Source: the human T2T-CHM13v2.0 reference genome, Homo sapiens. Taken from it: a stretch of DNA of 64,000 nt. Position numbers and translations under genes: made by a program. This document shows positions 35,513-39,764 of the stretch, one piece after another (position 1 is the first letter of the stretch; every line of letters begins with the position of its first letter). The notes beneath the pieces are model-generated. The model saw nothing but the letters and a program-made list of their open reading frames with translations, searched no databases and was not told where the DNA came from. Location of the stretch: the NCBI RefSeq assembly GCF_009914755.1, contig NC_060932.1. One strand, 5' to 3'.

Positions 35513-36176
35513 CAAGAAATAGAGAGTAGAATTATGGTTACCAGGAGCTGAAGGACGAAGGAGTTGAGGAGATGTTGGTCAACAGATCCAAAGTTTCAGT
35601 TAGCAGAAGTAAGTAGAAGAGAGCTATTCTACATCACAGTGAGTAAAATTAATAAGAATGTATTGTATACTTGAAAATTGCTAAGAGAGTAGATTTTAAA
35701 TGTTCTTTCACTACAAAAAATGGTAAGTATGTGTGGTAATAGATATGTTAATTCACTTGACTAGTCATTCCACAGTGTATACATATATCAAAATATCATG
35801 CTATATATCATAAATATGTACAATTTTTATTTGTCAATTTACAAAAGAAAAGGCAAAATAAATAAGGAACCTTATGACAACAAAATGCTCTCAAATAGTA
35901 AATCCCATCTCCTAAATACACATAAAATCAACAGGAGGATGGGAAGTTTAGGTTGAGACAATCTGCCCAAAAGACAAAGAGATGGAAAAATAGAAGAGTG
36001 AAGATAAGAAAATATAGCATTAGGCAAAAGGATTCAACATCATCTAAGTAGTAATCTAGACGATGAGAATTGAAAAAATGTTTCTGAGGAAATTACCAAA
36101 GAAATAACAGAAGAAAATGTCCCACAACAGGTAGGAAAGAATGTACTTTCCTAGACTGAAAGGACTATGTGTCTAT

Positions 36177-36881
36177 TATTAGAGTGGACAGCCAGACAGA
36201 CATGAGCAGGGCAGGAGAAGCCCCCCACCCCACCAGGAATGTCAGATGACCATCAGGTGCTAGTCAGGTGGTTGTTAAACTGTTTCTCTAAAATAATAAT
36301 TGGTTGCTGCTGGCACCGGGGAAAGGCAGTCTCCCAATAGATAGAAAACACCTGAAGGTGGTGGTCAGCAGTTTCCCAATAAGATCTCAGGAGTTAGTTC
36401 AGTGTGCTCAAGCATGCACATTAAGAGGCATAATGGTGGAGTTTAACTGGCATATAACCTTCCTCCAGGAACACTCAGCTGATAAGGGGGAAAACACTTC
36501 AAGTGAGCATACACACAACTTCCAGTAAACATACTACTCATGGGGCCCCTCCCAAGTGCTGGCATGTACATGCAAACAGCCCACCCCAAGGAAGAATCAG
36601 GAAAGAAGAAATGCAAAACCCTACAAGCATGCCAACATATAAAAAGCCCAAGTCAAGGACTAAATGGCACACTTGAACTCTGGAGTTGCCCAGTGGGCCC
36701 TCTTCCAAGTGTACTTTACTTCCTTTCTTTCCTGCTTTAAAACTTTTAAATAAACTTTCGCTCCTGCTGTAAAAATTGCCTTCATCTCTCACTCTGACTT
36801 ATGCTCTGCGGATGAATTCTTTCTTCTGACTAGGGAAGAATTGAGTTGCTGCAGACTCATATGGATTCACCACTGCTAACA
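36177..36881 (+). mobile_element. MER50-like LTR (arm 1 of inverted composite)
   Basis: tattagagtgg...agacatgagcagggcaggaga...aataaac...gctaaca; preceded by CTAT. Confidence 0.9.
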
Positions 36882-36886
36882 TACTT

Positions 36887-36904
36887 TGGTGCTGTGACTT
36901 GGAT
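36887..36904 (+). other. Retroviral primer-binding site, tRNA-His
   Basis: tggtgctgtgacttggat versus TGGTGCCGTGACTCGGAT (complement of the last 18 nt of tRNA-His); differences are CpG transitions. Confidence 0.88.
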
Positions 36905-37256
36905 AAAACTGTATGGGATGGGTTTTGTGAGAGCACCAGCTATACTGAGGGAAACTTTGGAGGGAACCAGCTACTAGATGATTCAATTAGTCTTTCATCC
37001 CTATATCCAGGTTGGACAATCGATTTGCCCATCAGGACCATTGCGGACCTCCACCAGTTTCCTCTGGCTTCATCTTGCCCAGGCATAGTTCACAATCTTT
37101 CATTTCCTAACACCTGTGCTCATGCTCCACCTCCCCAGCGTGGCAGGAGATACAGACCAGTGGTAGACTGGTGGTATTCCCTCAGTAGAGTGGAGAGTCC
37201 TTGGGAACCCACCGTGGGTGATGAGTGCTCCAGTCTTCACCTTCATTGCACCATGG
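36901..37256 (-). pseudogene. 28S rRNA fragment (antisense on + strand)
   Basis: gagggaaactttggagggaaccagctactagatg..., tttcctctggctt...cccaggcatagttcac, cttcaccttcattgc are reverse complements of conserved 28S sequence. Confidence 0.92.
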
Positions 37257-37398
37257 TCCATGGCAGTCCTGATGTGCAAATTAGGTGTCCAACCTGGGTA
37301 TAGGAAAAAAGACTAATCAAACCATCTGGTAGCTGGTTCCCTCCAAAGTTTCCCTTAGGATACCTGGTGCTCTCACAAACCCATCCCATGCAGTATCC
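37255..37398 (+). pseudogene. 28S rRNA fragment (sense), inverted copy of 36901-37048
   Basis: gtcctgatgtgcaaat...cctgggtatagg...aaagactaatcaaaccatctggtagctggttccctccaaagtttccc matches 28S. Confidence 0.92.
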
Positions 37399-37407
37399 CA
37401 GTCATGG

Positions 37408-37856
37408 TGAACCTGACCCAATTGTCCCATAGACAGTTCTTCTTGATAAACATAGGAATTGACACTTTTGGTCTTAAAACTTAAAACTTATATTTGTTTT
37501 ATCTGAGTTCCTTCCTCAGGAAACAACTTTCAGGCCTCTCAAAAAAAAAATATCAAGGAACTAAAATTCACCAGATTACCACATCCAGACAATCAGATGC
37601 CAGGACCTATCATTCAACATTATTGCTTCCTTGCCCCTCCCTAGTTCCTGTTCTCTTACATTGTTACATTTCTTCCCTTCTATATAAACCCCTAGTTTTA
37701 GTGGGTCAGGGAGATGGATTTAGACTGAGCTCCCATCTCCTCAGCTGCAGCACCTGATTAAAGCCTTCTTCCTTGTCAATAGTTGTCATCTTAGGGCTTG
37801 GCTTTCTGTGTGGCAAGTAGCAGGACCTAGACCGAACCCCTGGTGTTTTGGTAACA
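37408..37856 (+). mobile_element. ERV1 solo LTR (MER83-like, tentative) inserted in the second PBS
   Basis: tgaacctgacccaattgtcccatagacag...gaacccctggtgttttggtaaca; flanks atgg/acag are CpG-decayed ACGG. Confidence 0.85.
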
Positions 37857-37870
37857 ACAGCACCAAAGTA

Positions 37871-38573
37871 TGTAAGCAGGGATGAATCCATATTTGTCTG
37901 CAGTAACTTGATTTTTGCCTTTTCAGAGGAAAGAATTCATATGAGAACCATAAAGCAAAGTGAGAGACCAAGGCAAGTTTTAGAGCAGGAGTGAATATTT
38001 ATTAAAAAGTTTTAGAGCAGGAATGAAAGAGAGTTAAGTATACTTGGAAGAGGACCATGGAGGTGACTTGAGAGATCCAAGTGTGCCATTTAGTCCTTGA
38101 CGTGGGGTTTTATATGTTGGCATGCTTCCAGGGTTTTATGTCTCTTCTCTCTGATTCTTCCCTTGGGATGGGCTGTCTGCATGTGCAGTGGCCTGCCAGC
38201 ACTTGGGAGGCACCACATATGCAGTGTGTTTACTGAAGTTGTGCGCATGCTCACTTGAGGTGTTTTTCCCTTACCAGTCAAGTGTTCCTAGAGGAAGGTC
38301 ATATACCAGTTAAACTCTACTACTGTGCCTCTTAGTGCGCATGCTTGAGCCCAATCACCCAACTCCTAAGATCTTAATGGGAAGCTGCTGATCACCAGCT
38401 TCAGGTGTTTTTTGTCTATTGGGAGACAGCTCTTCCTGGTGCTGGCCGCTACCACTTATTATTTTAGAGTTTAATAACCACCTGACTATAACCTGATAGT
38501 CACCTGACATTCCTGGTGAGGTGGGGGGCCCTCTCCTGTCCTGCTCATGTCTGGCTAACTACCTACTCTAACA
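37871..38573 (-). mobile_element. MER50-like LTR (arm 2 of inverted composite)
   Basis: Reverse complement begins tgttagagtaggtagttagccagacatgagcagg; followed on + strand by CTAT. Confidence 0.9.
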
Positions 38574-39764
38574 CTATCACAGTGATTGAGGAAAGATATT
38601 ACCCCTACCAAGACATTTCAGAACCCAGGGACAGAGACTTTATTTGGAAAGCTTCCAGAACATGGAGTAGGGGATGGAAAGATGAAGTAGGGCAGAGTGG
38701 GGAGGGTGGGTGAGGAGGGGGTGGAAGCAAGTTGTCAACAAAAAACTGGGGATTGGAATGGTGTTACAGCACTATTGTCAAAAGATGATGGAATTATGCC
38801 TTTCAAATTCTGAATTATTTCCAATTTAGCATTGTATTATCAAATAGTCAAGTGGTGGGATTATAATAATAAAACATTTAAAAAGATGCAAAAGTCTCAA
38901 AAAAATTGATCTTTCATGCACACTTTGTCAGTAATTTACTGTGATGCTCACCTGAAGTAAACTTGTAAACCAATAAAGAAAGAAATATGAACTGTTTTCT
39001 GGGAAACAGGAAATCTGACTTTAGAGTGGAGTGAAGTGAATTCCTGAGATGATGGTGAAAGGAAATCCTAGTATAATGAAGAGGAGCTGTCCCAGGAAGC
39101 AAATTTTCCCAATTAGAGCAAGGGTATCCAAGGACTCTAGAAGGATTGTTCTAAGAAACAAAACAATCACATTTGCTTGTTGTTTATGAACAGGTTGTGG
39201 GGAGTTTTATTTAGATGAATGGGTGGGAGTTTGGGCAAAAATCAGTGGAAGGTACATAAGAAAGGAATTAAACAAGCAATAGGACTTGATTAAAGTGAAG
39301 CAACAAAAGTGTTACACAAAAAAGGCTCCTTCATTAATGAGTGTGTGGTTCAGCTATGGATTATTATATGCAAATCATAATGTCAAATTGAATATTAATA
39401 AAAAAGATCAATAACTACAGTGGGTGACTATAGGAAAGGGTACATTATAGAACTCAATCCTCATCTTCCATAGTATGAAGTCAGTAGATACTACTATTGA
39501 AAAAACTAAGAAACAATATTCTATATTATCGTTGAGGAATTTGATAATAAATACCAGAAAAAAATGAGTTGAACATCATTTCCTCTGGAGATCACAGATC
39601 AGGGTGAAGAAGGAACTAGGGGATGGCTGCTTTCATCATGTCTTATAAAGCTGTTTAACTGTTTAATGAATAAGAAAATAAAATTTAAGTGTAGTTATAT
39701 TAAAGAATACCATCAAGCATGTTCTCTATTGTTGAGAAAGAACATTCATTCTTCTAGCTCAAAT

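What the first reader, a model, noticed from the sequence alone, without database searches (positions are those of the whole stretch)
36173..38577. Inverted-LTR / tRNA-PBS / 28S rRNA composite integrated as one unit
Seen: CTAT - MER50-like LTR(+) 36177-36881 - tRNA-His PBS - antisense 28S (36901-37256) - sense 28S (37255-37398) - PBS(-) - LTR(-) 37871-38573 - CTAT. Both outer termini are U3 ends, unlike a provirus, which has direct LTRs. The 4-bp duplication is the size ERV1/gamma-type integrases make, and the flanks (…agactgaaaggactatgtgtctat | cacagtgattgaggaaaga…) read as one continuous old L1/HAL1 ORF1-like sequence. Inference: a single integrase-catalysed insertion of a palindromic cDNA with no retroviral internal sequence, carrying only rRNA. 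It is either an aberrant reverse-transcription product or a member of an undescribed non-autonomous LTR-rRNA element class.
Basis: partly seen in the sequence, partly recalled or inferred. Interest (0 to 1): 0.93.

Follow-up and report, generated by a model that had tools for sequence, protein, structure and literature searches.

The report
Palindromic retroviral strong-stop DNA fossil with 28S
An ancient retrovirus left a one-off, mirror-image insert made of two outward-facing LTRs around a piece of 28S ribosomal RNA, and its joints show it to be a failed reverse-transcription product that the viral integrase inserted anyway.

Summary
Window 36177-38573 is a palindromic insert. Each arm is a ~705-bp LTR, 5 nt, an 18-nt tRNA-His primer-binding site (PBS) and a 28S rRNA segment. 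Both outer ends are U3 termini, flanked by a direct CTAT/CTAT duplication.

New here:
- The PBS|28S joint lies exactly after PBS nucleotide 18, the normal 3' end of plus-strand strong-stop DNA. It sits on a 5-nt microhomology (CGGAT / 28S AUCCG).
- The 28S runs antisense from that joint, as cDNA copied from rRNA would.
- The strand turns back on itself at a 2-nt overlap (37255-37256), leaving ~205 unpaired central bases.
It landed later inside the right-arm PBS with its own 4-bp duplication.
- This LTR family makes 4-bp duplications (9 of 20 solo copies perfect).

Not supported:
- The "new element class": the junction is unique in this genome, and the five family copies with a PBS carry other sequence after it.
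- The L1/HAL1 reading of the flanks.

Not testable here: orthologous empty sites and the name MER50.

Best reading (about 0.68): strong-stop DNA mis-transferred onto 28S rRNA, snapped back, became duplex, and was integrated through two U3 ends. It is a single fossil, not a family.

The parts
36173..36176 (.). Left copy of the 4-bp target-site duplication (CTAT)
   Evidence: Read. Identical to 38574-38577. The family's solo copies carry 4-bp duplications.
36177..36881 (+). Left LTR (U3-R-U5), U3 end outward; starts TATTAGAG (TGTTAGAG in the other arm and in other copies) and ends GCTAACA
   Evidence: 2070 first-look candidates in the genome, of which 40 were scored at 77-82% identity. Searches give the ends. 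The TATA-like and AATAAA motifs were read.
36882..36886 (+). 5-nt spacer (TACTT) between U5 and the PBS
   Evidence: The same spacer, with variants, is present in the five family copies that keep a PBS.
36887..36904 (+). 18-nt primer-binding site complementary to the 3' end of tRNA-His (GTG); its last 5 nt (36900-36904) also match 28S
   Evidence: (tRNA-His gene L080). 16 of 18 match; both mismatches are CpG to TpG.
36905..37256 (-). 28S rRNA-derived cDNA, antisense on the + strand. 36905-37049 pairs with the right arm; 37050-37254 is the unpaired centre.
   Evidence: (Rfam 130.3 bits, model positions 675-954).
37255..37256 (.). Turn-back junction: GG shared by the end of the antisense 28S and the start of the sense 28S
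   Evidence: the antisense HSP ends at 37256 (L002 position 1501) and the sense HSP starts at 37255 (L002 position 1699). Reading.
37257..37394 (+). 28S rRNA-derived sequence in sense, mirror copy of 36905-37049
37395..37407 (-). Right-arm PBS, inner 13 nt (ATCCCAGTCATGG); the last 4 nt are one copy of the nested LTR's duplication
37408..37856 (+). Unrelated 449-bp solo LTR (TGAACC...GGTAACA), inserted later into the right-arm PBS. Its flanking ATGG/ACAG are the two CpG-decay forms of ACGG in the PBS.
   Evidence: 1470 first-look candidates, 40 scored at 81-85% identity; among 9 paralogues the 4-bp duplication is perfect in 3, has one mismatch in 2, does not match in 3, and one copy is 5'-truncated so its start is unplaced.
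37857..37865 (-). Right-arm PBS, outer 9 nt (ACAGCACCA), including the second copy of the nested LTR's duplication
37866..37870 (-). Right-arm 5-nt spacer
37871..38573 (-). Right LTR, inverted, U3 end outward (reverse complement starts TGTTAGAG)
   Evidence: (81% identity to the left LTR, the best non-self hit).
38574..38577 (.). Right copy of the 4-bp target-site duplication (CTAT)

Best explanation
The insert is the integrated fossil of a failed reverse transcription by an ERV1-type (4-bp duplication, tRNA-His-primed) retrovirus.

Shown: each arm is U3-R-U5, 5 nt and exactly the 18-nt PBS. That is the structure of plus-strand strong-stop DNA (+sssDNA). It is followed at once by 28S sequence in the orientation of a cDNA copied from rRNA.

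Inferred steps:
1. The 3' end of +sssDNA (...CGGAT) did not transfer to the minus-strand PBS. It paired with AUCCG in 28S rRNA, and reverse transcriptase copied about 350 nt of rRNA.
2. After the rRNA template was lost, the 3' end folded back on its own strand at a 2-nt overlap. It copied itself through 28S, PBS and LTR to its 5' end, which gave a hairpin with a ~205-nt loop.
3. The hairpin was converted to a linear duplex. One natural route: a second +sssDNA anneals to the new PBS(-) copy and is extended by strand displacement through the whole hairpin.
4. Integrase processed two U3 ends. The family's U3 and U5 tips share the 6-bp TGTTAG. The palindrome was inserted with a 4-bp duplication.

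Later events: the arms decayed independently (K2P 0.188), and an unrelated LTR integrated into the right-arm PBS.
For: - Junction position. In the tRNA-His gene of this genome the 18 nt matched by the PBS are preceded by A (position 58 by the standard numbering). The element has AAAACTG after ...GGAT, not the tRNA read-through. Passages of PMC8599865 state that plus-strand synthesis stops 18 nt into the tRNA, one nucleotide before m1A58, and show this for M-MLV RT.
- Microhomology. The rDNA reads CAGTTTTATCCGGTAAAG, so CGGAT/AUCCG (5 nt) is shared by the PBS end and 28S.
- Orientation. The 28S is antisense downstream of the plus-sense LTR-PBS.
- Turn-back. The antisense part ends at 37256 and the sense part begins at 37255. 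The arms are collinear over 858 nt.
- Unit insertion. The palindrome ends at LTR base 1 on both sides, and the flanks are not mirror images. CTAT/CTAT is direct.
- Duplication size. Of 20 solo copies with both ends located, 9 have perfect 4-bp duplications, 6 have one mismatch and 5 are worse. 5-bp and 6-bp comparisons do not match.
- Not a family feature. 0 of 28 other copies have 28S. The five with a PBS continue into non-28S sequence; three of them share a common leader. The junction is unique.
- Terminal repeat. The U3 start TGTTAG equals the reverse complement of the U5 end CTAACA.
Against: - No orthologue or empty site could be examined, so the single CTAT pre-insertion state is inferred only.
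- Flank continuity is unproven. Neither flank has usable paralogues, Pfam finds nothing, and L1 ORF1p does not align across an in-silico empty site.
- The LTRs alone do not show that the arms are each other's closest relatives. An ML tree makes them sisters at 92/85, but the bootstrap had not settled. They share 0 bases private to the pair and rank 55-195 of 435 pairs on shared rare bases. Arm-arm identity is 82.7% against a median of 81.4%, rank 80 of 435.
- Shared non-CpG differences from modern rDNA are few (3), and at least one is also in an independent 28S fragment.
- Conversion of the hairpin to a duplex (step 3) has no direct trace in the sequence.
- A 2-nt overlap at the turn is as compatible with end-joining as with self-priming.
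Confidence: 0.68

Rival explanations
1. Two separate half-molecules. Two LTR-PBS-28S duplexes formed, each by mis-transfer onto 28S with its second strand primed by leftover rRNA fragments. Each gave one U3 end to a concerted integration. The host then joined the two ragged 28S ends by end-joining at the GG overlap.
For: The arms are unequal, with 28S reaching L002 position 1501 on one side and 1699 on the other. The join has only 2 nt of overlap, as end-joining gives. This route needs no unfolding of a hairpin. The LTRs show no private shared variants.
Against: It needs the same mis-transfer at the same nucleotide twice. It also needs a chromosome break to be held together until repair. A single fold-back explains the same sequence with one rare event fewer.
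Confidence: 0.13
2. Post-integration rearrangement. A one-armed LTR-PBS-28S insert, or a provirus, was later turned into a palindrome by a chromosomal fold-back or inverted duplication. On this reading the CTAT match is chance.
For: Fold-back inverted duplications with short microhomology and an unpaired centre are a known product of replication errors (general knowledge, not tested here). A 4-mer match has a chance of 1 in 256, which is not negligible genome-wide.
Against: A chromosomal fold-back would copy the left flank as well. Here the mirror symmetry stops exactly at LTR base 1 on both sides, and the right flank is unrelated to the reverse complement of the left flank. The duplication also has the family's own size and is in direct orientation.
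Confidence: 0.08
3. It is a member of a non-autonomous LTR-rRNA element family that amplified.
For: Both ends are integrase-competent, so in principle the structure could be mobilised. Only 40 of 2070 first-look LTR candidates were scored, so most copies were not inspected.
Against: The 85-nt junction query found no second place crossing PBS|28S (0 of 28 other candidates). An 18-nt junction pattern had 2 exact hits: the window, and a chance site without 28S. With up to 2 mismatches it gave 623 hits against 618 for the reversed control. A palindrome without a packaging signal or a direct R-U5...U3-R layout could not be reverse-transcribed in the normal way (inference).
Confidence: 0.03
4. Assembly artefact.
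For: Palindromes can be produced by assembly or library artefacts.
Against: The arms differ at 16% of sites and by several indels. One arm carries an old nested LTR with its own decayed duplication. A RefSeq lncRNA exon maps to the centre (annotation supplied with the finding).
Confidence: 0.01

Closest known systems
Plus-strand strong-stop DNA, the normal retroviral replication intermediate
   Same: Each arm is U3-R-U5 plus exactly 18 nt complementary to the primer tRNA, ending one base before tRNA position 58 (PMC8599865 passages).
   Different: The intermediate is normally transient and transfers to the minus-strand PBS. Here it is fossilised in a chromosome, extended on 28S rRNA and duplicated in mirror image.
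Solo LTRs and proviruses of the same ERV1-type family
   Same: The same ~705-bp LTR with TGTTAG...CTAACA ends, a 4-bp duplication and a tRNA-His PBS.
   Different: The LTRs are inverted rather than direct, both outer ends are U3, and there is no gag/pol/env or leader. rRNA takes the place of internal sequence.
Rearranged unintegrated retroviral DNA, such as the inverted segments in cloned circular MLV/ASV DNA attributed to autointegration or aberrant strand transfers
   Same: Inverted LTR-containing arrangements arising during or after reverse transcription. One such paper appears only as a reference-list title in PMC12789967 (Shoemaker et al. 1980). The Olsen and Swanstrom papers of 1985 and 1990 are recalled only and could not be read.
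   Different: Those are unintegrated, mostly circular forms made of viral sequence. This one is integrated in the germ line, has a duplication at two U3 ends, and carries cellular rRNA.
Chimeric retrocopies made by RT template switching onto cellular RNAs (LINE-1 chimeras with snRNA, rRNA and other RNAs)
   Same: Reverse transcriptase switches to an abundant cellular RNA at short microhomology (search listing and abstract of PMC13174262 only).
   Different: The enzyme and the integration route here are retroviral (LTR ends, 4-bp duplication), not target-primed L1 insertion. There is no poly(A).
Ordinary 28S rRNA-derived fragments in the genome
   Same: L081 on chromosome 8 at 56.2 Mb carries the same 28S region at 86% identity to rDNA.
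   Different: L081 runs through the AUCCG site into further 28S sequence, has no PBS or LTR, and abuts an A-rich tail that follows an Alu-like repeat (family named by eye).

Membership tests
ERV1-type (gamma-like) LTR family, 'MER50-like' | LTR with TG...CA ends and short terminal inverted repeat | tested here: met
   The right arm starts TGTTAGAG. The left arm starts TATTAGAG, one substitution away. Both end GCTAACA or GCTTACA. 25 of 28 other copies show both end motifs.
ERV1-type (gamma-like) LTR family, 'MER50-like' | 4-bp target-site duplication | tested here: met
   CTAT/CTAT here. Of 20 solo copies with both ends located, 9 are perfect, 6 have one mismatch and 5 have two or more.
ERV1-type (gamma-like) LTR family, 'MER50-like' | Match to the curated Dfam/Repbase MER50 model | not testable with these tools
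No repeat library is on hand. A paper search for 'MER50' plus '28S' gave 0 papers.
Canonical provirus or solo LTR | Two direct LTRs around gag-pol-env, or one LTR alone | tested here: not met
   The LTRs are inverted. Between them are only the PBS copies, 28S and a nested foreign LTR.
Plus-strand strong-stop DNA | U3-R-U5 followed by exactly the 18 nt copied from the primer tRNA, stopping before position 58 | tested here: met
   36177-36904. The PBS matches 16 of 18 to tRNA-His plus CCA, and the next base departs from the tRNA.
Eukaryotic LSU rRNA (Rfam RF02543) | Score above the gathering threshold | tested here: met
   130.3 bits against 50, model positions 675-954. It is a fragment only, not a gene.
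Non-autonomous LTR element family (TRIM/LARD-like) | Several copies sharing the same internal sequence and direct LTRs | tested here: not met
   The junction is unique, 0 of 28 LTR copies have 28S, and the LTRs are inverted.
   Pfam gave 0 families for both flanks read through with X at stops. tblastn of an L1 ORF1p from this genome against the in-silico empty site gave nothing better than E 4.6. A very old element could escape both tests.

The most novel reading that the evidence does not exclude
This is a natural germ-line record of three events otherwise known, as far as I could find, only from biochemistry or not at all. First, plus-strand strong-stop DNA mis-transferred onto a cellular rRNA at 5 nt of homology. 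Second, the product snapped back and copied itself. Third, a DNA bearing two U3 ends underwent concerted integration in vivo. If so, retroviral integrase does not need a U5 end in vivo. Dead-end replication intermediates would then be a previously uncounted source of insertions carrying cellular RNA, and could be searched for systematically.
Probability: 0.6. Interest if true: 0.62.

Novelty: new variant of a known kind. Interest (0 to 1): 0.55.

Why it matters
The joints of this insert are precise enough to read a failed reverse transcription step by step, tens of millions of years after it happened. It suggests that dead-end replication intermediates can still reach the germ line. It suggests that integrase can use two U3 ends in vivo. 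It also suggests that rRNA was available as a template where this virus reverse-transcribed.

It gives a concrete search pattern for more such fossils: an LTR, an exactly 18-nt PBS, then non-viral antisense RNA, or inverted LTR pairs with a family-sized duplication.

It is a single locus, not a new mobile-element class. Its local afterlife is an lncRNA exon on the turn-back junction and an annotated silencer in the 28S part, which is incidental reuse.

Tried and rejected
- Flank continuity. DNA searches with the left flank (self plus one 45-nt hit) and the right flank (self only) gave no paralogues spanning the site. Pfam on both flanks with X at stops found 0 families (one search had failed because of stop codons). 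tblastn of an L1 ORF1p taken from locus L073 against an in-silico empty site found nothing significant. The L1/HAL1 claim is therefore left unsupported, not disproved.
- Family search by the 28S-containing core. rDNA arrays took 80 of the 81 listed rows, and the remaining row was the window's own locus. I switched to the LTR and to the junction.
- Junction pattern with up to 2 mismatches. Hits were at the control level, 623 against 618. The one other exact hit (L082) has no 28S or LTR similarity.
- A hit of the junction query to chromosome 8 at 56.2 Mb. It proved to be an independent 28S fragment without a PBS.
- The 9-nt 'deletion' shared by both arms relative to modern rDNA, considered as proof that the arms are copies. 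Rejected, because L081 has the same shorter form.
- LTR phylogeny as proof of sisterhood. The tree says sisters at 92/85 with an unsettled bootstrap. Shared-rare-base counts do not agree, so this is inconclusive.
- Literature. Ten searches found no description of an LTR-PBS-28S palindrome or of inverted-LTR ERV insertions with duplications. These cover open-access PMC and bioRxiv only. The two older J Virol papers I recalled are not held.
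Full report
**What is there**

Reading 35900-38900 and running the repeat finder confirm a large inverted repeat. Eleven collinear inverted segments (I1-I11) link 36174-37038 with 37266-38577. One later insertion has to be removed from the right arm (see 'The missed piece'). After that, the left arm (36177-37056) and the reverse complement of the right arm align over 858 bases at 83.6% identity. 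There are 89 transitions, 52 transversions and 35 gap columns, giving K2P 0.188.

From outside to inside, each arm consists of:
- a ~705-bp LTR;
- a 5-nt spacer;
- an 18-nt primer-binding site (PBS);
- 28S rRNA-derived sequence.

The centre, about 37050-37254, is present once. It is a continuation of the left arm's 28S.

**The LTRs**

The left LTR has 2070 first-look candidates in this genome. The 40 that were scored are 77-82% identical to it, and the right arm is the best non-self hit at 81%. The LTR starts TGTTAGAG (the left arm has TATTAGAG) and ends GCTAACA. A TATA-like box and AATAAA lie in the expected order, so U3 faces outward on both sides.

I located both ends in 25 of 28 other copies. 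Five of these are followed by a PBS and so are proviral 5' LTRs. Of the remaining 20 solo copies:
- 9 have a perfect 4-bp duplication;
- 6 have one mismatch;
- 5 have two or more mismatches.

Comparisons at 5 and 6 bp do not match. The family's integrase therefore made 4-bp duplications. The insert is flanked by CTAT (36173-36176) and CTAT (38574-38577) in direct orientation, abutting LTR base 1 on each side. The mirror symmetry does not continue into the flanks.

**The PBS**

A 15-nt pattern taken from the window's PBS hits 401 places in the genome. One of them (L080) is a gene that ARAGORN calls tRNA-His (GTG). Its last 15 nt plus CCA are the reverse complement of window 36887-36904. The match is 16 of 18, and both mismatches are CpG to TpG. 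The tRNA base just 5' of those 18 is an A, which is position 58 by the standard numbering.

**The 28S**

Rfam's eukaryotic LSU model matches 36969-37284 on the minus strand at 130.3 bits. Against an rDNA unit of the same genome (L002):
- the left part is antisense (36929-37164 at 85%, and 37191-37256 at 77%);
- 37255-37382 is sense at 85%.

Printing the rDNA beside both arms shows that the homology runs on to CAGTTTTATCC, directly abutting the PBS.

**The joints and what they imply**

In the rDNA the sequence is CAGTTTTATCCGGTAAAG. In the element it is, read as sense, CAGTTTTATCC followed by the rest of the tRNA-His 3' end.

The 5 nt ATCCG (CGGAT on the other strand) are common to the PBS end and 28S. 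So the crossover lies within the last 5 nt of the 18-nt PBS. It is compatible with the exact 3' end of plus-strand strong-stop DNA. What follows the PBS is not the tRNA read-through.

Passages of PMC8599865 state that plus-strand synthesis ends 18 nt into the tRNA, one base before m1A58. They also show that M-MLV RT stops there in vitro.

The left arm is therefore U3-R-U5-PBS, which is +sssDNA, extended by a cDNA copied from 28S rRNA. That also explains why the 28S is antisense relative to the LTR.

At the other end, the antisense cDNA stops at 37256 (L002 position 1501) and sense 28S starts at 37255 (L002 position 1699). GG is shared between them. From there the strand retraces itself to the LTR's first base. 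This is the signature of a strand that folded back and copied itself.

**The missed piece**

Positions 37408-37856 belong to a different LTR family. It has 1470 first-look candidates, and the 40 scored are 81-85% identical. Paralogues start TGAAAC... and end ...GGTAACA. Among 9 paralogues the 4-bp duplication is perfect in 3, has one mismatch in 2 and does not match in 3. The ninth copy is 5'-truncated, so its start could not be placed.

In the window this LTR is flanked by ATGG and ACAG. These are the two CpG-decay products of ACGG, and ACGG is what the tRNA-His PBS has at that spot. This was a later, independent integration into the right-arm PBS. It is not part of the original structure.

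**Is it a family?**

- None of the 28 other LTR copies has 28S within 1.5 kb downstream.
- The five copies with a PBS (L024, L025, L026, L031, L034) continue into non-28S sequence. L024, L026 and L031 share a common leader; L025 and L034 follow it only at its start.
- An 85-nt query across LTR end, PBS and 28S start found 28 other candidates. 27 cover only the LTR/PBS part. One covers only 28S, and it is an independent rRNA fragment (L081) that runs through the AUCCG site into more 28S.
- An 18-nt junction pattern has two exact hits: the window, and a site with no 28S or LTR similarity. With up to 2 mismatches, hits equal the reversed-pattern control (623 against 618).

At this sensitivity the structure is a singleton. 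Only 40 of the 2070 LTR candidates were scored (12 of them without a locus and so not inspected), so a diverged second copy cannot be excluded.

**Are the arms copies of each other?**

The strongest evidence is the identical PBS|28S joint and the same 28S segment on both sides. The LTRs themselves add little:
- An ML tree of the two arms plus the 28 best-matching copies is a star in which the arms are sisters. Support is 92/85, the bootstrap had not converged, and 11 of 500 label shuffles did as well.
- The arms share no base private to the pair.
- They rank 55-195 of 435 pairs on shared rare bases.
- They rank 80 of 435 on identity (82.7% against a median of 81.4%).

This is what one expects if the source virus was close to the family's founder. 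It is not positive proof.

The arms share a 9-nt shorter form of 28S relative to modern rDNA. L081 has the same shorter form, so it most likely reflects the rRNA of the time.

**Mechanism**

The steps below are inferred unless marked otherwise.
1. +sssDNA was made normally. This is shown by its exact structure.
2. Its 3' end paired with AUCCG in 28S rRNA instead of the minus-strand PBS, and RT copied about 350 nt.
3. The free 3' end snapped back on its own strand at GG. It was extended to the 5' end, which created a blunt U3 end and a hairpin with a ~205-nt loop.
4. The hairpin became a two-ended duplex. A natural route exists: the new strand contains a perfect PBS(-). That is the normal acceptor for a second +sssDNA, whose strand-displacing extension through the hairpin would give the full complement.
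5. Integrase joined the two U3 ends to the target. The U3 and U5 tips of this family share TGTTAG, so a U3/U3 pair offers the same terminal 6 bp. PMC12789967 describes the att sites as imperfect inverted repeats with conserved CA/TG.

Step 4 leaves no trace in the sequence and is the weakest step.

**Rivals**

- Two half-molecules plus host end-joining explains the unequal arms and the 2-nt joint. It needs the same mis-transfer twice.
- A chromosomal fold-back after a one-armed insertion would have mirrored the flank. It would also not give a direct, family-sized duplication.
- An assembly artefact is excluded by the 16% arm divergence and the old nested LTR.

**Age**

K2P 0.188 between the arms means about 9% decay per arm. 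With a recalled neutral rate of about 2.2e-9 per site per year, this is roughly 40 million years, and more at slower rates. This is a rough figure and was not checked against orthologues.

**What could not be done**

- No primate genomes are reachable, so there is no test of the empty site.
- No repeat library is on hand, so 'MER50' and the flank family are untested.
- The flank L1/HAL1 claim failed every test I could run.

**Literature**

Ten searches of open-access PMC and bioRxiv found no description of such a structure. The older work on rearranged unintegrated retroviral DNA that I recall could not be read. Subscription-journal literature was not searched, so the claim that this is undescribed is limited to those searches.

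**Verdict**

The best reading is a one-off integrated snap-back of plus-strand strong-stop DNA primed onto 28S rRNA. It is a mechanistically informative oddity, not a new element class.

Noticed in passing
window 37408-37856 (+): An unrelated 449-bp solo LTR (TGAACC...GGTAACA; 1470 first-look candidates genome-wide) is nested in the right-arm PBS. Its 4-bp duplication has decayed to ATGG/ACAG.
   Followed up: yes
window 37213-37293 (-): Exon 2 of the lncRNA C8orf34-AS1 (from the supplied annotation) lies wholly in 28S-derived sequence and spans the turn-back junction at 37255-37256. On the minus strand it is bounded by AG (37294-37295) and GT (37211-37212), read.
   Followed up: partly
window 36968-37168: The RefSeq 'silencer' feature (from the supplied annotation) lies entirely within the antisense 28S part of the left arm and centre.
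   Followed up: no
L081 (G000:C8:56219300-56219900): An independent antisense 28S fragment (86% identity to rDNA over 318 nt) follows an A-rich tail downstream of an Alu-like repeat (family named by eye, not tested). Like both arms of the palindrome, it lacks 9 nt that the modern rDNA unit has in the GC-rich stretch just 5' of CAGTTTTATCC. This suggests the extra bases are a later gain in rDNA.
   Followed up: partly
L024 (G000:C8:68127314-68131044), about 600 kb upstream of the window's locus: A copy of the same LTR family with PBS and leader (a proviral 5' end), preceded by a 157-bp LTR fragment (last row). No link to the palindrome was seen.
   Followed up: no
window 37975-37995 and 38007-38027: A 21-nt direct repeat 32 nt apart in the right LTR (D1). 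The left LTR has the corresponding pair around the AATAAA region, so this is a feature of the LTR itself.
   Followed up: partly
window 37240-37256 (centre of the palindrome): The 28S cDNA ends about 9 nt beyond the motif GCAATGAAGG (read as sense). I recall, without any check here, that human 28S carries an m1A in that motif. Whether RT pausing near a modified base set the turn-back point was not tested.
   Followed up: no
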